64,000 nucleotides of DNA from an uncultured Solirubrobacterales bacterium. Its GTDB lineage: Bacteria > Actinomycetota > Thermoleophilia > Solirubrobacterales > Solirubrobacteraceae. Below the pieces are notes generated by a model. The model was not told the DNA's origin. It did not search any database and saw only the letters and a list, made by a program, of their open reading frames with translations. The DNA lies in contig CAVPFP010000029.1 in NCBI GenBank assembly GCA_963703775.1, positions 17,105 to 81,104 of the forward strand. Direction: 5' to 3'. Positions 8,998-43,861 of the stretch are shown piece by piece. A program made the position numbers and the translations under genes. Each line of letters starts with the position of its first letter. Position 1 is the stretch's first letter.

Positions 8998-9753
8998 CTA
9001 GTCGAGCCGCTGCACGCGGGAGCCGGGGACGATGTCATCGCTGCCGTCAGGCCAGCGGATCCATGCCTTGGTGCCCCCGTCGTAGTCCGGCGCGAGCAGG
9101 ATCAGCGTCGCCGGCTCACCGAGGGCCAGGCACGACTCACCGCCCTCGCCGTCGAGCCCGCGCCAGACCCGGATGAACGGGTTGCGAGCCCACTCGTGGC
9201 CGATCGTTGTCGTGTCGCTGTGGCCAGGTTGGATCACCGTTTCGTGAGGAAGCTCCATCAGGGTGCCCATGATCGAGTCCTTGAGCGCCTGATAGGTCCC
9301 GTGACCAGGAGCGCGGACGCCGCCGACCGATTCGCGAAAGAGCGTGTCACCGGTGAACACCGCGCCGTCCGCGCCGTCTGTGACGAGGAAGGACAACATG
9401 CCCAGCGTGTGCCCGGGCGTGTGGAGCGGGCGGATTCGAAGAGACCCGACGCTCAGCTCCTCCCCGGCTGCGATCGTCCCGGTCGCCCCGGGCACGAGCT
9501 CGCGTTCGAGCTCATGGATCAGCACCGGCGCAGCGGGCCAATGGCGGGTCAGCGAGGCCACGCCGGCGACATGATCACCGTGGTGGTGGGTCAGCAGGAT
9601 CAGGCTTGGCGTGACGCCGCGGCGCGCCGCGGCTTCGACGAGCGGTTCGACCGGCGGGCCAGCGTCGATCACCACCGCAGTGCCACCCGCCTCGTCGAGC
9701 ACGAGATAGCAGTTGGAGCGCAAAGCGGGGTTGGTTGCGCGCTCAACGATCAT
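8998..9753 (-). CDS. MBL-fold metallo-hydrolase (glyoxalase II / hydroxyacylglutathione hydrolase-like)
   Basis: Track ORF of 251 aa with the THHHGDH metal motif, ..HTPGHT.. and ..GDTLF.. Confidence 0.85.
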   Translation of the reverse strand: MIVERATNPALRSNCYLVLDEAGGTAVVIDAGPPVEPLVEAAARRGVTPSLILLTHHHGDHVAGVASLTRHWPAAPVLIHELERELVPGATGTIAAGEELSVGSLRIRPLHTPGHTLGMLSFLVTDGADGAVFTGDTLFRESVGGVRAPGHGTYQALKDSIMGTLMELPHETVIQPGHSDTTTIGHEWARNPFIRVWRGLDGEGGESCLALGEPATLILLAPDYDGGTKAWIRWPDGSDDIVPGSRVQRLD

Positions 9754-32991: not shown

Positions 32992-34109
32992 ATGAGTTCG
33001 CCGCAGCGCCTGCGCATCCTGCTCGTCGAGGACGATGCGATCTTCGCCGCTGTCACCGCCGAGGTGATGCGCGAACGCGCGCTCGTCCGCTGGACACCGA
33101 CGGCGGAAGCGGCCCTCGCCGCCGCGGGCGAGAAGGAATGGGATCTGATCATCACCGACATCGAGCTCCCGGGAATGAGCGGGCTCGAGCTCGTGATGAA
33201 GATCAAGGCGTCGCAGCCGCACGTCGCCACGCTGATCCTGACGGGCCATCGCAGCTTCGACAACGCGGTCGAGGCGATCCGTGTCGGCGCCGACGACTTC
33301 CTCACGAAGCCGGTCGACCGGCGCGACGCTGATCGAGAAGATCGATGAGCTCGCAGCGCTGAGCGCGCGACGCCGCGCCTCGAGTCAGCGCGACGGTCCT
33401 CGCCGTTGGCGCTCACCCCGACGACATCGAGGTCGGCTGTGGCGGCACCCTGCTTTCCCACATCGCGCAGAACCATTCCGTCTCCGCGCTGGTGATCACC
33501 GGCGGCGAGGTGGGCGGAGTCCCCGCCGACCACGCTCGCGAGGCGGCTCGCGCCGCCGAGCTGATGGGAGTCCGCCTATTCCATATCAATGTCGGCGACG
33601 CCAACGTAGGCGATTTGGAGGCGACGACAAACGAAATCCGCCGCGTGCTGGAGGAGCTGACGCCCGACACGCTCTACACCCACAGCATTCACGACTTCAA
33701 CCAGGATCACCGCAGCGTGCACGAGGCCTCGGTCGCCGCGGCCGCGAACGTTCCCCGGGTCTTCTGCTACCAGAGCGCCTCGAGTACCGTCGAGTTCCAG
33801 CCGAGCCGTTTCGTGGCAGTCGATGAGTACATGGACCGCAAGCTCGCCGTCGTCCGTGCCTACAAGTCGAACGTCCGCCAGCGCCGCTATCTCGACGCCG
33901 ATCTGCTCCGCGCGACCAGCCGCTACTGGAGTCGTTACGGACAGACCAGGTTTGTCGAGCCGTTCGAGGTGGTCCGTGAGACGCCGGCCGTCGTCTCGCC
34001 CGAGTGGTCCGACGATGAGGCCGAGATCACGGGCCCAACGTCCTCACCGACTTCCAATGGCGTGGCGTGGGACCAGCGCACGCCGATCGAATCGCCTGTC
34101 AGCGACTGA
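32992..34109 (+). pseudogene. response regulator receiver fused to PIG-L/LmbE-family deacetylase, two frame breaks in the linker
   Basis: REC (LRILLVEDD..DLIITDIELPGMSG..FLTKPVD) runs in track ORF 32965..33348. The linker ATLIEKIDELAALSARRRASSQ is in the frame of ORF 33281... The PIG-L domain TVLAVGAHPDDIEVGCGGTL..NQDHRSVH.. is in the frame of ORF 33492..34109 and has no start codon of its own after the stop at 33360-33362. Breaks lie near 33320 and 33390. Confidence 0.75.
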
Positions 34110-34142: not shown

Positions 34143-35480
34143 CTAGGTCGCCGCGCTCTGTCCGCGGCGCGACACGGCGTCCACGATCACCGCTGCCAGC
34201 AACACCAGCGCCGTGATCATGAACTGGAAGTCGGCGGAGAGGCTTAGCAGGCCCATGCCGTTGTAGATCGTCGCGATGACGAGGCCGCCGAGTAGCGCGT
34301 GGACCATCTTGCCGCGACCGCCGAGCAGGCTCGTGCCGCCGATCACCGCCGCAGCGACGCCGTAGAGCACGAGCTGGCCGCCGTCGGTGTCGGTATTCGC
34401 ACCGCCCGTCCGTGAGTCGAGGATGATGATCGCCGCGGCGGCACTGAGGCCGGCGAGCGTGTAGCAGAGCACACGCACGCGGTGGACGTTGATGCCCGCG
34501 CGGCGCGCGGCTTCGCGGTTGCCGCCGATCGCGTAGATGTAGCGGCCAAAGCGCGTGCGGTTCAGGACGAAGGTCCACACGACGACGATCCCGATCACGA
34601 TCGGCACGACCCAGGGGATGCCCTCGACCGTCGTGCCCTTGAAGACCGCGCGGTTGACGCCACAGACCGCGACGAGCGCGGCGCCGCCCGCGGCGACGGC
34701 GGCGATCTTGGCAACCGTCAGGGCAAGCGGCGGAGCCACTAGACCCCCGGCCCGCCGCCGGCGATCGCGCGTCAAGCTCAGGGCGGCGTAGAGCACGATC
34801 GCGACCGCGAGCACGATCCACCCGGCCGTGACGCTCATGTTGCCGTTGACGATGTCGTAGATCGTGGTGTTGGTGATCCGGATCGAGCCACCGTTCGATG
34901 GGCTCTGGTTGTTGATCACCCAGATCAGGAAGCCCTCCCAGAACAGCAGGCCGGCGAGCGTGACGACGAACGGCGGAAGGCGCAGCCGGGAGATGATCTG
35001 CCCCTGCGTGAAGCCGATCGCAGCGGTCGTGGCAAGGCCCGACGCGATGGCGAACGGCCAGCCGAGGTTGATCGGTGGGTAAGCGAGAATCGTCATCACC
35101 GCTGCCCCGACGGCGCCGGAGTAGCCGAGCGAGAGGTCGATCTCCCCGAGCAGCAGAACGAAGATCTCCGCCATGCCGAGCACCACGAAGGCCGCCGCCT
35201 GCTGGAGGAGGTTTGCGAAGTTCAGCGCCGTGAGGAAGCGCGAATCCTCGATCTGGAAGACGATGATGATCGCGATCAGGCCACCGACGACGGGCAGTAC
35301 GCCGCTCTGGCCGCTGCGCACCCGCTTGAACCAGGCACTCAAGTACTCGTTGACGGTCGCGTCCGGCGGTAGCGCCATGAGATCGCGGTCGAGCGTCACC
35401 TGGTCGGCTGCGGTCTCCTCCTCGATCGCGGGAGGCGCCGTGACCTCGCCGAGGTGCTGCGGCTTGTCGGTTGTGCTCAT
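34143..35480 (-). CDS. sugar ABC transporter permease (CUT2, xylose/ribose-type)
   Basis: Track ORF of 445 aa with ~10-12 hydrophobic helices and a typical CUT2 permease layout (..GEIDLSLGYSGA.., ..GGTSLLGGRGKMVHALLGGL..). Confidence 0.9.
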   Translation of the reverse strand: MSTTDKPQHLGEVTAPPAIEEETAADQVTLDRDLMALPPDATVNEYLSAWFKRVRSGQSGVLPVVGGLIAIIIVFQIEDSRFLTALNFANLLQQAAAFVVLGMAEIFVLLLGEIDLSLGYSGAVGAAVMTILAYPPINLGWPFAIASGLATTAAIGFTQGQIISRLRLPPFVVTLAGLLFWEGFLIWVINNQSPSNGGSIRITNTTIYDIVNGNMSVTAGWIVLAVAIVLYAALSLTRDRRRRAGGLVAPPLALTVAKIAAVAAGGAALVAVCGVNRAVFKGTTVEGIPWVVPIVIGIVVVWTFVLNRTRFGRYIYAIGGNREAARRAGINVHRVRVLCYTLAGLSAAAAIIILDSRTGGANTDTDGGQLVLYGVAAAVIGGTSLLGGRGKMVHALLGGLVIATIYNGMGLLSLSADFQFMITALVLLAAVIVDAVSRRGQSAAT

Positions 35481-36341
35481 CAGATCCTCGCCGCTTCAGG
35501 GACGCCGTTCTCCCGTTCGCTCAACACTCCGGTCGTCATGATCTCGACCGCGCTCTGGCGGTCATAGTCCGATGCGGGGCCGGCGGATACGAGCCGGCCG
35601 AGGTGGAGTATCGCCACGCGGTCGGCGACCGCGAACACGTCGTTGAGGTTGTGCGAGATCAGGAGCACGGCGATCCCGCTGCCGGCGAGGCGCTTGATCA
35701 GGTCGAGCACCATCGCCGTCTGGGACACGCCGAGCGCCGCGGTGGGCTCGTCCATGATCACGAGCCTTGCATCGCCCATCACCGCGCGGGCCACGGCGAC
35801 GCTTTGGCGCTGGCCGCCGGAAAGCGAGCCGACCGGCTGGCGGATTGAGCGTACGGAGGTGACCGAGAGATCGGCGAGCGTCTTGCGGGCGGTCAGCTCC
35901 ATCGGCGTCTCGTCCAGCATGCCGCGACTCAAGGTTTCCGCGCCGAGGAACATGTTGGCGACGATGTCGAGGTTGTCGCACAGCGCCAGGTCCTGGTAGA
36001 CGGTGGCCACGCCGAGCGTGGTGGCGTCGTGCGGAGTGCGAATCTGAACTCGTTCGCCGTTCCAGTGGATCTCGCCGTGGTCGGCTTCGTGGATCCCCGC
36101 GATCACCTTGATCAACGTCGACTTGCCCGCCCCGTTGTCGCCGAGCAGCGCGGTCACCTGTCCCGCCGGCGACATCGAGATCTACGGCGTCGAGCGCAGT
36201 GACCGGCCCGAAGTGCTTCGAGATGCCGTGCAGCGAGAGCAGCATCTGGCCTGCGGGGCTGGGCTCCCGGTCCGCCGAGGCGGACCGGGAGCCATACCCG
36301 TCCTGCGATTCGCTAGCCGCGTCTGTGGAATCGGCCATCAT
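35480..36341 (-). pseudogene. sugar ABC transporter ATP-binding protein with a single NBD, one frame break
   Basis: Track ORFs 35562..36341 (N-terminus ..MLLSLHGISKHFGPVTALDAVDLDVAGG) and 35480..36175 (QVTALLGDNGAGKSTL..LSGGQRQSVAVARAV..LVIMDEPTAALG..LLISHN..). Removing one base near 36161 restores DLDVAGGQVTALLGDNGAGKS. An alternative start is at 36245. Confidence 0.85.
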
Positions 36342-36391: not shown

Positions 36392-37627
36392 CTACTTGAT
36401 CTTGTACTTGGCGCAGTCCGCGGCGTACGACGGGCCCGAAGGCGGCGCGCCGGCGCAGATCTGCGATGCGGGGACGAACTTGTCCTTGACGACCGTCTTC
36501 TCGATCGTCGCCGCCGTGACCCACTCCGGGGTCTCGAGCACTGATGGGATGCTGACGTTCGCGACGCTGTCCGTCGTCGAGCCGTTCAGCAGGGACTTCG
36601 GCACCGACACGTTTGCGCGTGCATACATCGCCAGCGCGGCCGCCGCCTGCGCCTCCAGGAAGACCGGCTTGTAGACCGTTCCGCACTGGTAGCCGCTGAT
36701 GACGTTCTGCAGACCCGGTAGTGAGGCATCCTGCCCCGTCGTCGGGAACGTGTTGGGCTTGACGCCCTGCTGCTGCAGGTAGGTGATGATCGCAGCGGCC
36801 GTCGCGTCGTTAGCCGTCAACGTCGCGTTTGCGGTCGGGTGCGCGGTGAATGCCTGCTGGAATTGCGTTTCAGCGGTCGGCGGATCCCATGTTCCGGCGA
36901 GGTAGCCGTTGGCGCCCTCGAGATCGGTCCACCCACCACCGTTGAACTTCGCGTTCAGGACGCTGAAGTAGCCCTGCGCGAACTGCGTCGCGTTGTTGTC
37001 CGTCGCGGCGCCGTGGTTCACGATGACCATCGGGGTCTTGACGCCCCATGCGGTGACGCAGTCAACGAGCCCCTGGCCCTCGAGCGCGCCGACCTTGACG
37101 TTGTCGAAGCTGACGTAGTACTTGCCGGTGGTGGCACCGCCGAGGGTAAGACGGTCGTAGTCGATCGTCTTGACGCCAGCCGCCGTATCCGCCTTCTCCA
37201 CCTGGTCGCCGGTTGCTGAGTCGACCGGAGTGATCAAGATCACCTTCGCGCCAGCCGTGATGTCCGACTGGTCGTCGGTGATGAAGGTGGAGTCAGAGCC
37301 CTGGGCGTTCTGGATGATGATGTCGCTCGACTTGAGGCCGGCGGCCGACAGCGCCTTCTTGAGGTACGGCGCGTCGAACTCCGTCCAGCGGGTCGAGGAC
37401 ACCGTGTCCGGAAGGATCACGGCCACCTTCCCCTTGGCCTTCTTGGCGAGGGGGACAAGGGCCTTCATCGCCGAGAACGACGTGTTGAAGTCCTTGGAAC
37501 TGAGGTTCTTGTACGTCACGGCCGGCTTAGCCTTGGCCGCGAAACTGCTCTCGCTCGCAAACAGCACGCCGGTGATAGCCACCGACACGATGCCGACAAA
37601 AGCGAGTCTGCTCCTAAGCAGAGACAT
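36392..37627 (-). CDS. sugar ABC transporter substrate-binding protein (periplasmic-binding-protein type I, secreted)
   Basis: ATG at 37627 within track ORF 36392..37702. Signal peptide MSLLRSRLAFVGIVSVAITGVLFASESSFA, then ..KVAVILPDTVSSTRW..AKVILITPVDS.. Confidence 0.85.
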   Translation of the reverse strand: MSLLRSRLAFVGIVSVAITGVLFASESSFAAKAKPAVTYKNLSSKDFNTSFSAMKALVPLAKKAKGKVAVILPDTVSSTRWTEFDAPYLKKALSAAGLKSSDIIIQNAQGSDSTFITDDQSDITAGAKVILITPVDSATGDQVEKADTAAGVKTIDYDRLTLGGATTGKYYVSFDNVKVGALEGQGLVDCVTAWGVKTPMVIVNHGAATDNNATQFAQGYFSVLNAKFNGGGWTDLEGANGYLAGTWDPPTAETQFQQAFTAHPTANATLTANDATAAAIITYLQQQGVKPNTFPTTGQDASLPGLQNVISGYQCGTVYKPVFLEAQAAAALAMYARANVSVPKSLLNGSTTDSVANVSIPSVLETPEWVTAATIEKTVVKDKFVPASQICAGAPPSGPSYAADCAKYKIK

Positions 37628-37721
37628 GCTTCGGTCCCTCTCTCTCTGATCACATTGCTGTGCTACCGAGGCCGGCGCAACGCGTCGCGACCCCCGCAAC
37701 ACGGGAACGAAACGAATCTAG

Positions 37722-37787
37722 GCGTTTTGGCGTAAACGCGACATCAAAGTTCGCGTGGTTTCTGGAACAAGATGTAAACGCGTTTAC
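37722..37787. promoter_or_regulatory. two AT-rich palindromes sharing the half-site AAACGC upstream of the sugar ABC operon
   Basis: GCGTTT-TGGCGT-AAACGC at 37722-37739 and GTAAACGCGTTTAC at 37774-37787, read directly. GTAAACGCG occurs at 37732 and 37774, 42 nt apart. Confidence 0.4.
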
Positions 37788-37794
37788 GTCTTGT

Positions 37795-38511
37795 TTATTC
37801 GGGCGCGAGCCGGTAGCCGACCCGGGGCTGGGTGAGGATCAGCGGCGGGCTCCCGGCGGGCTCGAGCTTGGCGCGGAGGCGGCGCACGTAGACCCGGACA
37901 TACTCCGTCTCGGTTTCATACCCCGGCCCCCAGACGCGCCGCAGCAGCTGCGCATGCGTCAGCAGCTTGCCGCGATTGACCACCAGCTCACGCAGCAACG
38001 CGAACTCGGTCGGCGTCAGATGGAGGGGGGCGCCATCGCGGGTCACCTGGCGCCCGGCGAGGTCCATCTCGAGCCCGTCGCCGAGTGCGACCAACGTGCT
38101 CTGCGCCTCGGCGGGAGCGGGGCGCGTGCGCCGCAACGTGGCACTGATCCGCGCAAGAAGCTCGTCGATGCTGAACGGCTTTGTCAGGTAATCATCGGCG
38201 CCCAGGTTCAGCGCCGCGACCTTGTCGTGATCGCCGCCGCGGGCTGAGACAACGACAACGCCGACGCTCGAACGCTCGCGGACCTGCTTGCAGAGCTCGA
38301 AGCCGTCGACCGACGGCAGCATGAGGTCGAGCAGGATCAGGTCGGGCTGCTCGGTTTCGAGGATCTGCAGCACGCGAGCGCCGTCCGTGGACACGACCGT
38401 GTCGAAGCCGCGCACGGTGAGATTCGAGCGAATCAGGTCGACGATGTTCGGATCGTCCTCGACCACGAGGATCTTCGTGGCGAGCGCTGGCTCAGACGTC
38501 GGCGAGGTCAT
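37795..38511 (-). CDS. OmpR/PhoB-family response regulator (KdpE-like)
   Basis: Track ORF of 238 aa: KILVVEDDPNI..DLILLDLMLPSVDG..LGADDYLTKPF.. plus a winged-helix C-terminus (..THAQLLRRVWGPGYETETEYVRVYVRRLRAKLE..). Confidence 0.9.
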   Translation of the reverse strand: MTSPTSEPALATKILVVEDDPNIVDLIRSNLTVRGFDTVVSTDGARVLQILETEQPDLILLDLMLPSVDGFELCKQVRERSSVGVVVVSARGGDHDKVAALNLGADDYLTKPFSIDELLARISATLRRTRPAPAEAQSTLVALGDGLEMDLAGRQVTRDGAPLHLTPTEFALLRELVVNRGKLLTHAQLLRRVWGPGYETETEYVRVYVRRLRAKLEPAGSPPLILTQPRVGYRLAPE

Positions 38512-40999
38512 GGTCCTCCGTGTAGCGGTGCGAGGGGTCCGGCTCGCCGATTGGCAGCGTCACGGAAAAGCGCGTGCCATGGTCGAGCCTCTCGAGCACG
38601 ATCTCGCCGAGATGGGCGTCAACGATTCCCTTTGCGATCGACAGCCCGAGGCCGGCGCCGGCCGCTGGACCGACGCCGCCGTTGCGGGCCTCGAACAGCG
38701 CGCTCGCCACTGCCTCCGGAAGACCGCCGCCGTCGTCGGTCACGGTTACGACGACGCCCTGCCCCTCGTCCCCGGTGGCGTTGACCACCACCCGCGTGCC
38801 GGGGGGGTTGTGGCGCAGCGCGTTCTCCAGCAGGTTCAAGAAGACCTGCTCGAGCCGATCGTGATCGGCCCAGATCACCGGCAGATCGTCCTGGCAATCG
38901 ACGTCGATCACAGCCGCCTGGGTCGGCGAAAGGCATGCGATCGCGGCGTCGATGACCAGTGGCAGCTCGCACCAGTCCGGCAGCATCCGCATCGTCGAAG
39001 ACTCGATCGCCGAGAAGTCGAGCAGGTCACCGACCAGCCGGCCGAGGCGGGCCGACTCGGCGCCGATTCGGGTGAGGAAGCGTGTCTCCGACGCACGATC
39101 CCAGGTGACGTCGGGCGCCATCAGGCTCGACGCGTAGCCCCCGATCGCCGTAAGCGGTGTCCGTAGCTCGTGACTGAGACGCGAGAGGAACCCTCGCTGG
39201 AGCTCCCGCGAACGCCGCAGGGCGCTCGCCTCCTGCCGAGCACGCTCCGATTCCTCGCGCTCGCGAGCAAGGCGTAGCGAATTGGCGGTGTCCTCCATCA
39301 GCGCGACGACATCCGGCGGGGCCGTCGTCGCCCGCCACTGCGCGATCAGGATGCCGCCGCCGTCCGGGGCCGCGAAGCGCACCGCCATGCAACCATCGCC
39401 GCCGGCCGCCATCATGCTCGCCGCGCGCCCCTCACGCGCGTCGCCGCGCCGCATGATCGCCGCCGCCTCGAGCAGGCCGGCGGACGGCGCCACCTTCGCG
39501 CCGGATGAGTCAATGGTGAGCCAACTCTCGGTACCGTCGGCCGAGTCCGAGAGGGTCAGTAGTGCCACGCGCTCGGCGAGGAGCCCCTCTCGAAGCGTGT
39601 TCAGCACGATCGTGAGGGCTTCGGCAAACGGCGGCCCGGCGAGCGTTTCGAGCACGACGCGGATCGTCTCGAGGACGCGGTTGCGCCCGGTGAGCTCGCC
39701 AAGCAGGCGCTCCCGCTCAACAGCGCTCGCGATATAGCCGGCGTAGAGGTTCACGAGCTGGCGCTCGTCGCTCGGGGGGTAGCCCGGAACCTCGCGAAAG
39801 ACGGTGATCACGCCGAGCACGCCGTCAGCGCCCATCACCGGGACCGACCACGAGCTGCGCACCCGGGCCTCGGTTGCCAGCAACCGCCATGGAGCCCACG
39901 CCGCGCTCGAGCGGATATCGAAATCGATCACGGCCTCGCCCGAATGGGCGGCAACTCCGACCGGACCGCCGGCAACATCGAAGGGCAGGTCCGACCATGC
40001 ATCGGCGATCGCGGTCGGCAGGCCAAGCGCCCCGGCGACGCGCAGCCGCCGCTCCTCGACGAGATGCACACACAACCGTGGCGCCCCCAGCGCGCCGGCG
40101 AGCGCCGACACGATCAATGGCAAGCTCGAGGAGGGCTCCGCCGAGGCAAGCTGGTCCGCGAGGCCGTGCAGGCGGCTCAACTGTCGGCGGGCCGAGGAAT
40201 CGACCGGCTGGCCGGAGATGAAGGCGACGATGTCCTCGGGGTGCGATTCGGCCGGGTTGACGTCCGCGGCGATCCGGCCGCGGCGCAGCACGACGATGCG
40301 GTCGGCCAGGCGGAATATCTGATCGATGTCGTGCGAGATCAGCAGGACGGTCGTGCCGCGCTCGCGCACGGTCGCCATCAGCTTGTCGACCTGCGCCGAC
40401 TCGTTCACGCCGAGCGCCGTCGTCGGCTCGTCGAGGACCAGCAGCTTGGGGCGGCTGGCCATCGCGCGCGCTACCGCGACGAGCTGGCGCTCGCCGCCGG
40501 ACAACGTCCCGACCCGCCGCGTCGTGTCGGTCAGCGCAATCCCGAGATCCGCGAGCAGCGCCCTCGCGGCTTCGTGAAAGCGCGGCGTGGATCGCAGCAA
40601 CGGGGATCTCTCGCTGCCGAGTAGGAGGTTCGACGCAACGTCGAGGTTGTCGCAGAGAACGAGGTGCTGCCAGACGACCGTGATGCCGCGCCGCGTTGCC
40701 GCTGCGGGCGTCGACCCGACCCGTTCGCCATTGAGGTAGACGTGGCCGCTGGTCGGGGCCATGTCGCCGCCGATGCAGCGCACGAGAGTCGACTTCCCGG
40801 CCCCGTTCTCGCCGGCGAGCGCGACGGTCTCGCCGGAGCGAATATCGAGGTCGAGCGCGTCGAGCGCGTTGTAACCCTCGTAGCGCACGCTGAGCGCCCG
40901 CACGCGCAGGAGCGGCGCACTCTCGCGCACCGCCGATTCTCTGGGCATGACCACCATCCTAGGCCCTCGTGCCATAAGCAACGACGGTAGCCGCGCCAC
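38492..40999 (-). CDS. soluble sensor histidine kinase with N-terminal ABC-transporter ATPase (NBD) domain, two GAF-like modules, HisKA and HATPase_c
   Basis: Single uninterrupted 835-aa track ORF. NBD motifs: GENGAGKST, VVWQH, LSGGERQ, LLVLDEPT, LLISHD. A GAF-like region follows (..RLCVHLVEERRLRVAGALGLP..VITVFREVPGYPPSDERQLVNLYAGYIASAVERERL..). H-box LSHELRTPLTAI, N-box LLENALRHN, G1 DDGGGL, G2 GAGLGLSI. The start could be 40999 or 40948. Confidence 0.85.
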   Translation of the reverse strand: MARLPSLLMARGPRMVVMPRESAVRESAPLLRVRALSVRYEGYNALDALDLDIRSGETVALAGENGAGKSTLVRCIGGDMAPTSGHVYLNGERVGSTPAAATRRGITVVWQHLVLCDNLDVASNLLLGSERSPLLRSTPRFHEAARALLADLGIALTDTTRRVGTLSGGERQLVAVARAMASRPKLLVLDEPTTALGVNESAQVDKLMATVRERGTTVLLISHDIDQIFRLADRIVVLRRGRIAADVNPAESHPEDIVAFISGQPVDSSARRQLSRLHGLADQLASAEPSSSLPLIVSALAGALGAPRLCVHLVEERRLRVAGALGLPTAIADAWSDLPFDVAGGPVGVAAHSGEAVIDFDIRSSAAWAPWRLLATEARVRSSWSVPVMGADGVLGVITVFREVPGYPPSDERQLVNLYAGYIASAVERERLLGELTGRNRVLETIRVVLETLAGPPFAEALTIVLNTLREGLLAERVALLTLSDSADGTESWLTIDSSGAKVAPSAGLLEAAAIMRRGDAREGRAASMMAAGGDGCMAVRFAAPDGGGILIAQWRATTAPPDVVALMEDTANSLRLAREREESERARQEASALRRSRELQRGFLSRLSHELRTPLTAIGGYASSLMAPDVTWDRASETRFLTRIGAESARLGRLVGDLLDFSAIESSTMRMLPDWCELPLVIDAAIACLSPTQAAVIDVDCQDDLPVIWADHDRLEQVFLNLLENALRHNPPGTRVVVNATGDEGQGVVVTVTDDGGGLPEAVASALFEARNGGVGPAAGAGLGLSIAKGIVDAHLGEIVLERLDHGTRFSVTLPIGEPDPSHRYTEDHDLADV

Positions 41000-41087: not shown

Positions 41088-43861
41088 TCACCCCGAGTCC
41101 GCGGCCGCCCGACGACCGTGCGCGACCGCCCGACGAACCACATAAGGGAGGATGCCGCCGTGGCGGAAGTAGGTCGCCTCCATCGGCGTGTCGATGCGGA
41201 CGCGCACCTCGAACTGCGCGTCGTCGGCGGTGACCTTTGCGATCGTCGGGAGCTCGCCGGCGGCCAGCGGCTCGGCGACGCCGGTGATCGAGAAGGTCTC
41301 GTTTCCGCTCAGGCCGAGGGACGCGGCGCTCTGCCCGTCCTGGAACTGGAGCGGCAGCACGCCCATGCCGACGAGGTTCGAGCGGTGGATGCGCTCGAAG
41401 CTCTCGGCGAGGACGGCGCGGATGCCGAGCAGTAGCGAGCCCTTGGCGGCCCAGTCGCGCGAGGAGCCGGAGCCGTACTCCTTGCCGCCGATGACGATCA
41501 GCGGGACCCCCTCCTGCTGGTAGCGCATCGCGGCGTCGTAGATCGCCAGCTGCTCGCCGTCGGGAAGGTGGTAGGTGTAGCCACCTTCGGGGAGCGGTGT
41601 CCGCCGGCCGCGACGAGGCGGTTGCGCAGACGGATATTGGCGAAGGTGCCGCGCATCAAGACCTCGTGATTGCCGCGCCGCGCGCCATAGGAGTTGAACT
41701 CCGCGGGCTCGACGCCGTGCTCCTGGAGGTAGCGTCCGGCCGGGCTGTCGCGCTTGATCGACCCGGCCGGGGAGATGTGGTCGGTGGTGACGGAATCGCC
41801 GAGCAGCGCGAGGACGAGCGCGCCCTCGATGTCCGACGGCGGGTCGGGCTCCTGCCTGAGGCCTTCGAGGAACGGCGGGCGGCGGACATAGGTCGAGTCC
41901 TCGGCCCAGGCGAAGCGGTCTCCGCTCGGGATCTCCAGGGCGTGCCAATGCTCGTCGCCGTCGAAGACCTCGGCGTAGCGCTTGTGGAACATGTCCGCCT
42001 GAACGGCGTACTGGATCGTCTCGGCGATCTCGTGCCGCGGACGGCCAGATGTCGCGCAGGTAGACCGGCTCGCCCGCCGTGTCCGTTCCGAGCGGGTCGC
42101 TGCGTCGAGATCGATGTCCATCGTGCCGGCGATCGCGTAGGCAACGACGAGCAACGGCGAGGCGAGGTAGTTGAGCTTCACATCCTGGTTGATCCGCCCC
42201 TCGAAGTTTCGGTTACCCGACAGCACCGCCGCGACGGCGAGGTCGTGCTCGTTGACGGCAGCGGAGATCTCGTCCGGCAGCGGGCCGGAGTTGCCGATGC
42301 ACGTGGTGCAGCCGTAGCCGACGAGGTTGAAGCCCAGCTCGTCGAGCGGTTGCGTGAGGCCCGCGCGCTCCAGGTAGTCGGTGACGACCATCGACCCGGG
42401 CGCGAGCGAGGTCTTCACCCAGGGCTTGCGCCGCAGTCCCCGCGCAACGGCGTTGCGGGCAAGCAGCCCGGCGCCGAGCATCACCGAGGGATTCGAGGTA
42501 TTGGTGCAGCTCGTGATCGCGGCGATCACGACATCGCCGTGGTCGAGCTCGACCACCTCGCCGTCGGCGAGCTTCACGCGGGCGGCCGTCGCGTGCGCAC
42601 CGTTCGTGCCGTTCGCCGGGGGGTCGCTCGCAGGGAAGCTGCCGGCGACCGCGTCGTCGAGATAGCTCTCGAGCGTCTCGTGCAGGCTGCGGCGAGCGGC
42701 GGACAGTGCGATCCGGTCCTGCGGCCGGCGCGGGCCCGCGAGGCTCGACTCGACCTCACCGAGGTCGAGCTCGAGGGTGTCGGTGAAGACCGGCTCGCGA
42801 GAGCTCTCGTCGTGCCACAGACCCTGCTCCTGCGCGTACGCCTCGACGAGCTCGATCTGCTCGGTCGGGCGACCGGTCAGTTCGAGATAGCGCAGCGTCG
42901 CGGCGTCGATCGGGAAGATCGCGACGGTCGAGCCGAACTCGGGCGACATGTTCCCGATCGTCGCGCGGTCGGCGATCGGTAGGGCAGCGACGCCGGCGCC
43001 GTAGAACTCGACAAAGCGGCCGACGACGCCCTTGCGCGCGCAGCAGCTGGGCGATCGTGAGCACGAGGTCGGTGGCCGTCGTGCCGTCGCGCAGCTTGCC
43101 GTGCAACTGGAATCCGATCACCTGGGGCAGCAACATCGACATCGCCTGGCCGAGCATCACGGCCTCCGCCTCGATCCCCCCGACGCCCCAGCCGAGCACG
43201 CCGAGGCCGTTGACCATCGGAGTGTGGGAGTCGGTGCCGACGAGCGTGTCCGGATAGGCTCGCGGCAGCTCGCCGCCTTCTTGCACGAAGACCACGCGCG
43301 AGAGGTACTCGAGGTTCACCTGGTGGCAGATGCCGGTATCGGGTGGAACGACCGAGAAGTTGTCGAATGCGCCGCTGACCCCAGCGCAGGAACGCATAGC
43401 GCTCGCGATTGCGCTCGAACTCGCGTTCCACGTTGACGGCGAAAGCGTCGCTGCGCGCGAACGCGTCGACCTGGACCGAGTGGTCGATGACGAGCTCGGT
43501 CGGGACGAGCGGGTTGATTCGCTGGGGGTCGCCGCCGAGCTCGACGATCGCGTCGCGCATCGCAGCGAGGTCGACGACGCCGGGAACGCCAGTGAAGTCC
43601 TGCATCAGCACGCGCGCCGGTGTGAACGCGATCTCCTTGCTCGGCTCGGCGTCGCGCGTCCCATTCGGCGATCGCCGCGATGTCCGCCGCGCTGACGGCG
43701 CCGTTGCCTTCGGTGCGCAACAGGTTCTCGAGCAGAACCTTCAACGAGAACGGCAGTCGCGCAACGTCGAAGCGCTCCTGCAGCGCGTCCAACCTGAAGA
43801 TCTCGAAGCGCCGGCCCCCGACCTCCAGCTCGGCGCGCGCGTCGAAGCTGTTCGCACTCAT
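41088..43861 (-). pseudogene. acnA: aconitate hydratase (AcnA-type), six frame breaks
   Basis: Reassembled from track ORFs 43316..43861, 42877..43611, 42756..43397, 41498..42949 and 41088..41948. Sequence runs MSANSFDARAELEVGGRRFEIFRL..AIAEWDA / [42 protein letters not shown] / [38 protein letters not shown] / [44 protein letters not shown] / [20 protein letters not shown] / [17 protein letters not shown] / ..[41 protein letters not shown].. Confidence 0.9.

What the first reader, a model, noticed from the sequence alone, without database searches (positions are those of the whole stretch)
38492..40999. Soluble histidine kinase whose input region is a complete ABC-transporter ATPase domain (NBD-GAF-GAF-HisKA-HATPase)
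One uninterrupted 835-codon ORF. Residues ~30-265 carry every ABC NBD motif in order: Walker A GENGAGKST, Q-loop VVWQH, signature LSGGERQ, Walker B LLVLDEPT, H-loop LLISHD. Residues ~290-590 look like two GAF-type modules. Residues ~600-835 have H-box SHELRTPLTAI, N-box LLENALRHN, G1 DDGGGL and G2 GAGLGLSI. No transmembrane segment is visible. The gene overlaps an OmpR/KdpE-like regulator gene by 20 nt (38492-38511). ABC NBDs are normally free subunits or fused to permeases. I know of no characterised two-component kinase that uses an intact NBD as its sensory module. ATP binding/hydrolysis, or docking onto a transporter, could therefore be the signal that is read out.
Basis: partly seen in the sequence, partly recalled or inferred. 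Interest (0 to 1): 0.85.

Follow-up and report, generated by a model that had tools for sequence, protein, structure and literature searches.

The report
Histidine kinase fused to transporter ATPase
A soluble bacterial sensor kinase carries, as its input end, a complete copy of the ATP-burning motor of the sugar importer encoded next to it. It probably senses sugar by plugging into that importer, a signalling design I could not find described anywhere.

Summary
Window 38492-40999 (-) is one intact ORF, probably starting at Met15 (40957). It encodes ABC NBD - GAF - a second alpha/beta module - HisKA - HATPase_c and has no transmembrane segment. The fusion is not an assembly artefact: more than 230 full-length relatives from independent assemblies share the architecture. 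They come from Solirubrobacteraceae, Streptosporangiaceae and Acidimicrobiales. In 237 members the Walker A Lys, Q-loop Gln and Walker B Asp-Glu are invariant, and the H-loop His is kept in 234.

The gene always sits in one cassette: NBD-kinase | OmpR-type regulator | sugar-binding protein | single-NBD ATPase | CUT2 permease. The flanking genes differ between genomes. The kinase NBD is a paralogue of the cassette's own ATPase (44% identity). Conserved PhoB-like direct repeats (CGTTyAC) and a -10 box precede the binding-protein gene. One lineage (four contigs) has lost the separate ATPase but keeps the permease under purifying selection (dN/dS about 0.1).

Best reading, at about 50%: the kinase dimer docks its NBDs on the permease and reports transport-cycle closure to the regulator. 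Eight literature searches and one review found no description of this design. I rate it a new variant of transporter-coupled sensing, and the mechanism is inferred, not shown.

The parts
38492..40999 (-). NBD-GAF-(GAF/PHY-like)-HisKA-HATPase_c sensor kinase gene. This is the longest ORF, 835 codons from GTG. The probable true start is the ATG at 40957 (Met15), giving 821 aa.
40205..40912 (-). Complete ABC nucleotide-binding domain (residues about 30-265), of the CUT2 NBD1 type. It has Walker A, Q-loop, LSGGERQ signature, Walker B with catalytic Glu, D-loop and H-loop.
   Evidence: Pfam ABC_tran E 2.7e-31. NCBIfam best matches are YtfR/AraG/XylG/RbsA positions 1-246. Motifs are invariant or nearly so in 237 relatives.
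40130..40204 (-). Conserved linker (ISGQxxDSSARRQLSRLHGLADxLAS) between the NBD and GAF1. It is predicted helical but with low model confidence.
   Evidence: Alignments. AlphaFold helix 254-271 in Met15 numbering, pLDDT 35-46.
39716..40123 (-). GAF domain 1 (residues 293-428).
   Evidence: Pfam GAF_2 E 2.2e-14 and GAF E 2.6e-11. Model pLDDT 80-92.
39314..39640 (-). Second alpha/beta module (residues about 454-562). It is GAF/PHY-like by predicted fold only.
   Evidence: AlphaFold secondary structure. Foldseek top hits are bacteriophytochromes 8upk_A and 9eut_A. No Pfam hit and no HHalign similarity to GAF1.
38999..39199 (-). HisKA/DHp domain with H-box SHELRTPLT (residues 601-667).
   Evidence: Pfam E 3.6e-14.
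38549..38866 (-). HATPase_c catalytic domain with N, G1 and G2 boxes (residues 712-817).
   Evidence: Pfam E 1.8e-20. Sequence.
37795..38511 (-). OmpR/PhoB-family response regulator gene. It overlaps the kinase gene by 20 nt.
   Evidence: Pfam Response_reg E 6e-29 and Trans_reg_C E 3e-22. NCBIfam MtrA/PhoB/KdpE-like, all below the equivalog cut-offs.
37715..37787 (-). Putative regulator-dependent promoter of the transporter genes. It has 7-bp direct repeats: CGTTTAC (37774-37780), TGTTCCA (37763-37769) and CGTTTAC (37732-37738). A TAGATT -10 box lies at 37715-37720. An inverted copy of box 1 (37781-37787, + strand) forms a hairpin or palindrome just after the regulator's stop codon.
   Evidence: The same arrangement (boxes at 0, +11, +42/43, then TAnnnT 11 nt after box 3) is seen in L081, L082, L084, L086, L087 and L091, and in degenerate form in L085.
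36392..37627 (-). Periplasmic-type sugar-binding protein gene (Peripla_BP_4, XylF/ChvE-like). The probable start is Met26 of the ORF that runs to 37702.
   Evidence: Pfam E 5e-35. NCBIfam XylF/ChvE E 1e-35 to 1e-37, below cut-offs.
35480..36341 (-). Single-NBD ABC ATPase gene of the cassette, split here by a 1-nt indel in a G run near 36165. The repaired product is 286 aa and is 44% identical to the kinase NBD.
34143..35480 (-). CUT2 permease gene (BPD_transp_2, GguB-like, 445 aa).
   Evidence: Pfam E 8.5e-25. NCBIfam GguB E 5.8e-63, below cut-off.

Best explanation
The protein is the sensor of a two-component system that reads the working state of the adjacent CUT2 sugar importer through a built-in copy of that importer's motor domain.

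Proposed mechanism:
1. The kinase is a soluble parallel homodimer held together by its GAF, GAF/PHY-like and DHp helical spine. This places two canonical ABC NBDs at one end.
2. These NBDs dock on the cytoplasmic face of the permease dimer, in place of, or in competition with, the dedicated single-NBD ATPase.
3. When the sugar-loaded binding protein engages the permease, ATP-dependent closure of the NBD pair is transmitted through the conserved NBD-GAF linker and the helical spine to the DHp/CA domains. This shifts the kinase/phosphatase balance.
4. ATP hydrolysis resets the sensor.
5. The phosphorylated OmpR-type regulator binds the CGTTyAC direct repeats that replace a -35 element. It activates the binding-protein/ATPase/permease operon.

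Shown here: the architecture, its conservation, the paralogy, the synteny and the conserved operator-like repeats.

Inferred only: docking on the permease, coupling of NBD closure to kinase activity, and the direction of regulation.
For: 1. All domains are real and the catalytic residues are under strong constraint. In 237 relatives, Walker A Lys is 237/237, Q-loop Gln 237/237, Walker B Asp-Glu 237/237, H-loop His 234/237 and LSGG 211/237. Between genomes the NBD is as conserved as the working cassette ATPase and more conserved than the GAF region.
2. The five-gene cassette kinase | RR | Peripla_BP_4 | single-NBD ATPase | BPD_transp_2 appears in every five-gene locus examined: window, L081, L082/83, L084, L085, L086, L087, L091-94. 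The flanking genes are unrelated between these loci.
3. The kinase NBD is 44% identical to the cassette ATPase (E 6e-58). In an NJ tree the kinase NBDs form one clade (142/200 bootstraps). That clade groups with the single-NBD ATPases (132/200), apart from tandem CUT2 NBD1 and NBD2.
4. The two paralogues share the derived post-Q-loop motif QDLALCDNLD. From my knowledge of MalK structures, not tested here, this segment lines the coupling-helix cleft. They also share a canonical LSGGQRQ. Tandem CUT2 NBD1s differ at both.
5. In four contigs of one lineage (L001, L088, L089, L090) the cassette has no ATPase gene. The binding-protein and permease genes are 5-13 nt apart in L088-L090, and L001 has no room for an ATPase gene between them. 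The permease stays intact, with dN/dS of 0.09-0.11.
6. Binding proteins diverge to 30% identity while the kinase NBD stays at 54%. This fits a kinase that reads the transporter and not the sugar.
7. Conserved direct repeats with 11-bp phasing and an invariant TAnnnT precede the binding-protein gene in the window and seven other loci (degenerate in L085). The tandem arrangement occurs only once in the 64-kb window.
8. The kinase has no transmembrane segment or extracytoplasmic domain of its own.
Against: - There is no physical or functional evidence of docking.
- Genetic linkage and paralogy would also arise if the NBD were only borrowed as an ATP-dependent dimerisation switch.
- In the ATPase-less lineage a complete second CUT2 system with its own single-NBD ATPase lies about 5 kb upstream (L088 1-2937). 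It could serve the orphan permease in trans.
- In that lineage the kinase NBD shows no shift towards ATPase-like residues (8 of 10 discriminating positions remain kinase-like).
- Bootstrap support for the key clades is moderate (66-71%).
- The NBD-GAF linker is modelled with low confidence (pLDDT 35-46).
- The GAF domain may bind an unknown ligand that is the real signal.
Confidence: 0.5

Rival explanations
1. Free cytosolic energy sensor. The two NBDs of the kinase dimer close on ATP and reopen after hydrolysis without touching any membrane protein. Kinase output then follows the cellular ATP/ADP level and gates expression of an ATP-consuming importer.
For: The protein is soluble with no transmembrane segment. 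All ATP-binding and hydrolysis residues are conserved. Canonical signature motifs suit a symmetric homodimer.
Against: It does not explain the strict linkage to one transporter type across three actinobacterial classes. It does not explain retention of the post-Q-loop segment shared with the cassette ATPase. It does not explain the lineage in which the kinase NBD is the only NBD in the cassette. An energy sensor would be expected next to varied targets.
Confidence: 0.2
2. Heterodimeric motor. The kinase NBD pairs with the stand-alone cassette ATPase to form the two-NBD engine. This would mimic the fused NBD1-NBD2 ATPases of canonical CUT2 importers, making the kinase an obligatory transporter subunit.
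For: Canonical CUT2 ATPases are tandem NBDs. The cassette encodes exactly two NBD-bearing proteins that arose by duplication.
Against: Both are NBD1-type with full canonical motifs, with no division into a degenerate and a consensus site. Histidine kinases are homodimers, so a 1:1 heterodimer would leave one kinase NBD unpaired or would bridge two transporters. Four contigs lack the partner ATPase yet keep the kinase NBD and the permease.
Confidence: 0.15
3. GAF-ligand sensor with an accessory NBD. A cytoplasmic metabolite, for example the imported sugar or a derivative, binds GAF1 and is the primary signal. The NBD only tunes dimerisation or localises the kinase.
For: GAF1 is a bona fide GAF with invariant GGPxGxAA and W/SxW/PV positions. 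GAF domains commonly bind small molecules (general knowledge).
Against: Between genomes the GAF region is the least conserved part of the kinase (40-67% against 54-67% for the NBD). The NBD catalytic residues would not need near-total conservation for a tethering role.
Confidence: 0.15

Closest known systems
BceS-BceAB flux-sensing modules of Firmicutes
   Same: The kinase has no sensing domain of its own and relies on an ABC transporter encoded beside it. The two-component system induces that transporter. Transporter activity, not the ligand, is what is sensed (review PMC8534201; bioRxiv 10.1101/2020.02.28.969956).
   Different: BceS is a membrane protein with two transmembrane helices that contacts the permease non-covalently, and BceAB is an exporter-type system. 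Here the kinase is soluble and carries a covalently fused NBD. The transporter is a binding-protein-dependent CUT2 importer.
PhoR - PhoU - PstSCAB phosphate signalling
   Same: An ABC importer reports substrate availability to a PhoR-type kinase from its cytoplasmic side (PMC9239213 and PMC13577022). The kinase core here is PhoR/PnpS-like. The promoter layout resembles pho boxes replacing the -35 element (the pho-box layout is from my own knowledge).
   Different: In Pst signalling the link is non-covalent and needs the adaptor PhoU. PhoR is membrane-anchored and has a PAS domain. Here the NBD is part of the kinase polypeptide and no PhoU-like gene is present in the cassette.
Kinases fused to membrane transporter domains: SLC5/STAC kinases CbrA/CrbS and the Amt-kinase KsAmt5
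   Same: A transporter module is covalently joined to a histidine kinase and acts as its input (PMC9100948 and PMC5715377; KsAmt5 in PMC8534201).
   Different: Those fusions use the membrane-embedded substrate-binding permease domain. Here the fused part is the soluble ATP-hydrolysing motor domain. It has no substrate site and would need a separate permease.
MalK of the E. coli maltose importer (NBD with a C-terminal regulatory domain that sequesters MalT)
   Same: An importer NBD carries a C-terminal extension that holds the dimer together beneath the NBDs and links the transport state to transcription. MalK NBDs are among the structural matches (2r6g, 3puy). The regulatory role is from my own knowledge.
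   Different: MalK's extension is a small TOBE-like domain that acts by binding an activator. Here the extension is a complete GAF - GAF/PHY-like - DHp - CA kinase that would signal by phosphotransfer.
Bacteriophytochrome histidine kinases (PAS-GAF-PHY-HK)
   Same: They are the best whole-chain fold matches (8upk_A E 4e-21, 9eut_A E 1e-20, about 670 aligned columns). They share GAF, a second GAF-fold module, long signalling helices, DHp and CA.
   Different: The match has low TM-scores (0.18-0.25) because the domains are oriented differently. The N-terminal PAS/bilin-binding part is replaced by an ABC NBD. No PAS_2 or PHY Pfam match was found.
KdpD
   Same: It is a sensor kinase with an N-terminal nucleotide-binding P-loop domain, and it controls a transporter operon (PMC11018627; the Walker motifs of the KdpD N-terminal domain are from my own knowledge).
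   Different: The KdpD N-terminal domain is not an ABC cassette. KdpD is membrane-anchored, and the transporter it controls is a P-type ATPase.

Membership tests
Class I two-component sensor histidine kinase (HisKA + HATPase_c) | DHp domain with an H-box phospho-acceptor histidine | tested here: met
   PF00512, E 3.6e-14, residues 601-667. SHELRTPLT is invariant in the family.
Class I two-component sensor histidine kinase (HisKA + HATPase_c) | Catalytic ATP-binding domain with N, G1 and G2 boxes | tested here: met
   PF02518, E 1.8e-20. LLENALRHN, DDGGGL and GAGLGLSI are present.
Class I two-component sensor histidine kinase (HisKA + HATPase_c) | Cognate response regulator encoded alongside | tested here: met
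   The OmpR-type regulator gene overlaps by 20 nt. The same pairing is seen in all related loci.
Class I two-component sensor histidine kinase (HisKA + HATPase_c) | Autophosphorylation and phosphotransfer | not testable with these tools
   Needs biochemistry.
ABC transporter nucleotide-binding domain (PF00005), CUT2 single-NBD subgroup | Walker A, Q-loop, LSGGQ signature, Walker B with catalytic Glu, D-loop and H-loop, in order | tested here: met
   ABC_tran 109 bits against a cut-off of 25. Motifs are visible and conserved in 237 relatives.
ABC transporter nucleotide-binding domain (PF00005), CUT2 single-NBD subgroup | Closest relatives are monosaccharide (CUT2) importer ATPases | tested here: met
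   Best NCBIfam matches are YtfR/AraG/XylG/RbsA positions 1-246. The NJ tree groups it with single-NBD CUT2 ATPases.
ABC transporter nucleotide-binding domain (PF00005), CUT2 single-NBD subgroup | Functional association with a transmembrane permease | tested here: inconclusive
   Only genetic evidence: invariant linkage to a BPD_transp_2 permease, a shared post-Q-loop motif with the cassette ATPase, and an ATPase-less lineage. There is no interaction data.
ABC transporter nucleotide-binding domain (PF00005), CUT2 single-NBD subgroup | ATP hydrolysis | not testable with these tools
   Catalytic residues are present and conserved. Activity is untested.
GAF domain | Match to GAF profiles (first module) | tested here: met
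   GAF_2 54 bits and GAF 45 bits, both above cut-offs.
GAF domain | Match to GAF profiles (second module, residues about 454-562) | tested here: not met
   No Pfam hit at E<=10 in five family members. HHalign against GAF1 gives probability 0.6%. Only the predicted fold and its position resemble a PHY/GAF module.
Bacteriophytochrome | N-terminal PAS-GAF bilin-binding photosensory core with a PHY domain | tested here: not met
   The N-terminus is an ABC NBD. No PAS_2 or PHY family match. The resemblance is at fold level only.
Bce-type transporter-dependent (intramembrane-sensing) kinases | Kinase with two transmembrane helices and no extracytoplasmic domain, contacting the permease in the membrane | tested here: not met
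   No transmembrane segment at all. The logic is similar but it is not a member.
Bce-type transporter-dependent (intramembrane-sensing) kinases | Adjacent ABC transporter whose expression the two-component system controls | tested here: inconclusive
   The transporter is adjacent in all loci. Conserved regulator-type direct repeats and a -10 box lie upstream of its first gene. Regulation is not demonstrated.
Transporter-fused kinases (SLC5/STAC CbrA/CrbS; Amt-kinase) | A membrane-embedded permease domain fused to the kinase | tested here: not met
   The fused module is the soluble NBD. The permease is a separate gene.

The most novel reading that the evidence does not exclude
The kinase is itself a motor subunit of an ABC importer. 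A kinase dimer sits on the CUT2 permease, hydrolyses ATP in response to the liganded binding protein, and converts each transport-cycle closure directly into a change in autophosphorylation. A soluble protein would thus achieve transmembrane signalling by borrowing a transporter's membrane domain. In the ATPase-less lineage it would be the only engine of the complex, making that complex a true 'transceptor'.
Probability: 0.4. Interest if true: 0.85.

Novelty: new variant of a known kind. Interest (0 to 1): 0.72.

Why it matters
How transporters pass information to kinases is still mechanistically unclear, even for the best-studied cases (BceAB-BceS, Pst-PhoU-PhoR). Here evolution has fused the transporter's conformational engine to the kinase. 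The path from NBD closure through the helical spine to DHp is therefore in one polypeptide, which can be purified as a soluble protein.

If the docking model is right, it adds a new way of signalling across the membrane without a membrane-spanning sensor. It would give a tractable system for studying flux sensing. It would also explain how a large group of soil Actinomycetota regulate a sugar importer.

The natural variant without a separate ATPase offers a ready-made test of whether the kinase NBD can drive or occupy the permease.

If the docking model is wrong and the NBD is a free ATP switch, it would still be the first ABC cassette I know of used as a sensory domain of a two-component kinase.

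Tried and rejected
1. The genome-contig scan with the family alignment was swamped by the generic Walker A pattern. It returned 79 ordinary CUT2 ATPases and only one true member (L001). Synteny was recovered through the look-up of encoding contigs instead.
2. Assembly-artefact hypothesis: rejected, see the observation check.
3. Second GAF: not supported by a Pfam scan at E<=10 or by HHalign against GAF1. It is kept only as 'GAF/PHY-like by fold'.
4. I looked for reversion of the kinase NBD towards ATPase-like residues in the ATPase-less lineage and found none. No claim is made.
5. PDB sequence search: no solved chain combines an NBD with a kinase.
6. Rfam scan of the window: no known RNA family.
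7. The sigma-70 consensus scan of the regulator/binding-protein intergenic region found no canonical promoter. The promoter call rests on cross-locus conservation of TAnnnT and the repeats.
8. Literature: eight searches with different vocabularies and one review found no NBD-kinase fusion. The library lacks most subscription-journal papers.
11. The sugar specificity could not be assigned. The binding protein scores below all NCBIfam equivalog cut-offs.

Full report
**What is in the sequence**

On the minus strand, 38492-40999 is one uninterrupted ORF of 835 codons from a GTG. Pfam finds four domains above their curated cut-offs: ABC_tran (residues 46-194, E 2.7e-31, 109 bits against a cut-off of 25), GAF/GAF_2 (293-428), HisKA (601-667) and HATPase_c (712-817).

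NCBIfam places the NBD (residues 30-274) closest to the N-terminal half of CUT2 monosaccharide importer ATPases (YtfR, AraG, XylG, RbsA). It places the C-terminal 230 residues closest to PhoR/PnpS-type kinases.

The highest 19-residue hydropathy mean is 1.70. It falls in the first helix of GAF1, so there is no transmembrane segment.

The real start is probably Met15 (ATG at 40957). It is preceded by GAGGG, and homologues of 819-825 aa begin there.

**Is the fusion real?**

The contig does carry indels. The ATPase gene two genes downstream is split by one extra base in a G run near 36165. The aconitase gene upstream is in three pieces.

The kinase ORF is nevertheless corroborated. A 96%-identical 821-aa protein covers 98% of it. 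All 120 best hits (57-96% identity) from JGI, ENA and NCBI assemblies are single proteins with ABC_tran + GAF + HisKA + HATPase_c.

A profile of more distant members retrieved 1999 proteins at E<=1e-50, and the 120 listed again share that architecture. A search of the 50%-identity representative library with only the middle region gave 73 hits at E<=1e-30. About 20 of these were full-length clusters (777-918 aa), in which the match starts near residue 250. All have an NBD in front.

Source names place members in Solirubrobacteraceae, Streptosporangiaceae and Acidimicrobiales, three classes of Actinomycetota. The window itself is closest to Solirubrobacteraceae sequences (84% to P0006).

**The NBD is constrained like a working ATPase**

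In 237 family members:
- Walker A Lys, Q-loop Gln and Walker B Asp-Glu are invariant. Walker A invariance is partly built in, because the members were selected with a GxxGxGK[ST] pattern.
- The H-loop His is kept in 234.
- The signature is LSGG in 211. Seventeen of the remaining members have Arg at the third position.

A few divergent members seen have degenerate signatures or, in P0177, a Walker B Asp-Asp. Between genomes the NBD is 54-67% identical. This is similar to the stand-alone cassette ATPase (60-77%) and higher than the GAF region (40-67%).

**Anatomy of the rest**

The AlphaFold model has mean pLDDT 76 and pTM 0.36, so domain folds are usable but relative orientation is not. In Met15 numbering it shows:
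- NBD 17-248
- a conserved but poorly modelled helix 254-271
- GAF1 278-395
- a long helix 396-438
- a second alpha/beta module 444-541
- a long helix 550-612 running into DHp, then DHp helix 2 (621-655)
- the CA domain 661-801

Foldseek's best whole-chain matches are full-length bacteriophytochromes (8upk_A, 9eut_A), followed by many ABC NBDs. The C-terminal 550 residues are therefore laid out like GAF-PHY-HK, with an NBD where the PAS domain would be.

The second module has no Pfam match and no profile similarity to GAF1. 'Two GAFs' is only half confirmed. No solved structure combines an NBD with a kinase.

**Context**

Downstream on the same strand are:
- an OmpR/PhoB-type regulator gene (37795-38511, overlapping by 20 nt)
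- a Peripla_BP_4 sugar-binding protein gene (XylF/ChvE-like)
- a single-NBD ABC ATPase gene (286 aa after repair)
- a BPD_transp_2 permease gene (GguB-like)

The same five genes, in the same order, occur in every five-gene locus I could retrieve: L081, L082/83, L084, L085, L086, L087 and L091-94. Their flanking genes are unrelated to each other. The cassette is therefore the unit of inheritance.

**Origin of the NBD**

The kinase NBD is 44% identical to the cassette ATPase (E 6e-58). Both match the NBD1 half of tandem CUT2 ATPases.

In an NJ tree the kinase NBDs form one clade (142/200 bootstraps). That clade groups with the single-NBD ATPases (132/200), away from tandem NBD1 and NBD2. The branching of the cassette ATPases mirrors that of the kinase NBDs. 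The simplest history is one duplication of the transporter's own ATPase, fusion to a GAF-kinase, and co-inheritance since then. Support is moderate.

The two paralogues share a derived post-Q-loop motif (QDLALCDNLD) and a canonical LSGGQRQ, where tandem CUT2 NBD1s differ. From my knowledge of MalK structures, that segment lines the cleft that receives the permease coupling helix. I did not test this here.

**A natural variant**

In L001, L088, L089 and L090 (four contigs whose kinases are 93-95% identical to one another) the cassette is kinase | regulator | binding protein | permease. There is no ATPase gene. In L088-L090 the binding-protein and permease genes are 5-13 nt apart, and in L001 there is no room for one between them.

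The permease is intact in three of the four contigs and evolves with dN/dS of 0.09-0.11. The kinase NBD gives 0.12-0.19. The nearest five-gene relative (L085, 63% identity) still has the ATPase, so the loss is recent.

Within that cassette, the kinase NBD is the only partner the permease has. The caveat is that a separate complete CUT2 system with its own ATPase lies about 5 kb upstream and could act in trans.

**Regulatory DNA**

The regulator-to-binding-protein spacer has a conserved layout in the window and seven other loci with kinases from 53% identity to the window's NBD upward (L085 only in degenerate form):
- a 7-bp box CGTTyAC
- a second copy 11 bp downstream
- a third copy 42-43 bp from the first
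- an invariant TAnnnT 11 nt after the third box

In the window these lie at 37774-37780, 37763-37769, 37732-37738 and 37715-37720. The tandem arrangement occurs nowhere else in the 64 kb.

This is the arrangement expected for a PhoB/OmpR-type activator replacing a -35 element (my own knowledge of pho boxes). It argues that the regulator drives the transporter genes. The ATPase-less variant has no such spacer, because the regulator and binding-protein genes overlap by 4 nt.

**Interpretation**

The most economical model is that the kinase homodimer presents two canonical NBDs to the permease dimer, as the ATPase homodimer does. ATP- and binding-protein-dependent NBD closure would then be relayed through the conserved linker and helical spine to DHp/CA. 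Hydrolysis resets the sensor, and the regulator then induces the transporter.

This resembles MalK, whose C-terminal domains hold the dimer beneath NBDs that open and close (my own knowledge). It also resembles flux sensing by BceAB-BceS (PMC8534201), but here the link is covalent.

I put this model at about 0.5. The rivals are:
- a free ATP/energy switch, 0.2
- a kinase-NBD/ATPase heterodimer mimicking tandem CUT2 ATPases, 0.15
- a GAF-ligand sensor in which the NBD is accessory, 0.15

Nothing here shows physical docking.

**Comparison and novelty**

Kinases that depend on transporters are known: BceS-BceAB, PhoR-PhoU-Pst and DcuS-DctA. Kinases fused to membrane transporter domains are also known: SLC5/STAC CbrA/CrbS and Amt-kinase KsAmt5. 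I found none that uses the soluble ABC motor domain as input. The evidence for that is eight full-text searches and a 2021 review of sensor-kinase diversity.

The library omits most subscription-journal papers, and databases already auto-annotate the architecture. I therefore rate this a new variant of a known kind, not categorically new. It is widespread, uncharacterised and directly testable, and I score interest at 0.72.

Noticed in passing
window 35480-36341 (-), indel near 36165: The cassette's stand-alone ABC ATPase gene is split into two overlapping ORFs (35562-36341 and 35480-36175) by one extra base in a G run (GGCGGGACAGG). Removing it gives a 286-aa single-NBD ATPase that aligns end to end with orthologues. 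This is probably a sequencing error and not a pseudogene.
   Followed up: partly
window 41088-43611 (-): The aconitase gene directly upstream of the kinase gene is broken into three overlapping ORFs (42877-43611, 41498-42949, 41088-41948). This confirms that the contig is indel-prone.
   Followed up: no
window 37760-37795 (-); L084 11168-11200; L091 about 9203-9237: An AT-rich hairpin or palindrome lies immediately after the regulator's stop codon (RNA fold -9.4 kcal/mol, z -3.5; L084 -15.7 kcal/mol, z -5.4). Stem changes between loci are compensatory. It contains box 1 of the CGTTyAC repeats and its inverted copy. It could be a weak terminator/attenuator between the regulatory and transporter genes, or a palindromic operator.
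   Followed up: partly
L001 7941-13584; L088 8001-13717; L089 8001-13677; L090 8001-13690: A four-gene variant of the cassette has no stand-alone ATPase and no internal promoter spacer. A second complete CUT2 system (binding protein, 346-348-aa permease, 277-282-aa ATPase) lies about 5 kb upstream, and an MFS transporter gene lies directly downstream.
   Followed up: yes
L081 12781-13683, L082 12710-13588, L084 12574-13458, window 36200-36341: The cassette ATPases carry a 30-45-residue low-complexity N-terminal extension rich in Ser, Pro, Gly, Ala and Asp. The Acidimicrobiales member (L087, 262 aa) lacks it. Its function is unknown.
   Followed up: no
L084 15883-17862; L091-L093 from 12952: In the closest relatives with long contigs, a hybrid histidine kinase gene (HisKA-HATPase_c-Response_reg) follows the cassette. 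The window does not have it at the corresponding position; a PIG-L-like fragment (33492-34109, + strand) follows instead.
   Followed up: no
P0177, P0145, P0163, P0166, P0175: A minority of divergent family members have degenerate signature motifs (LTRGEQQ, LSEARRQ, LTSGQRQ, LSRGQRQ, LPAGQRQ). P0177 also has Walker B Asp-Asp and H-loop Ser. This suggests that some lineages bind ATP but hydrolyse it poorly.
   Followed up: partly
L088 7855-8000: Upstream of the kinase gene in the ATPase-less variant there are three direct repeats of GGTAAyAG/GGTAATGA spaced about 14-16 nt apart. They are unlike the CGTTyAC boxes of the five-gene cassettes. This may be a different operator or promoter elements.
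   Followed up: no
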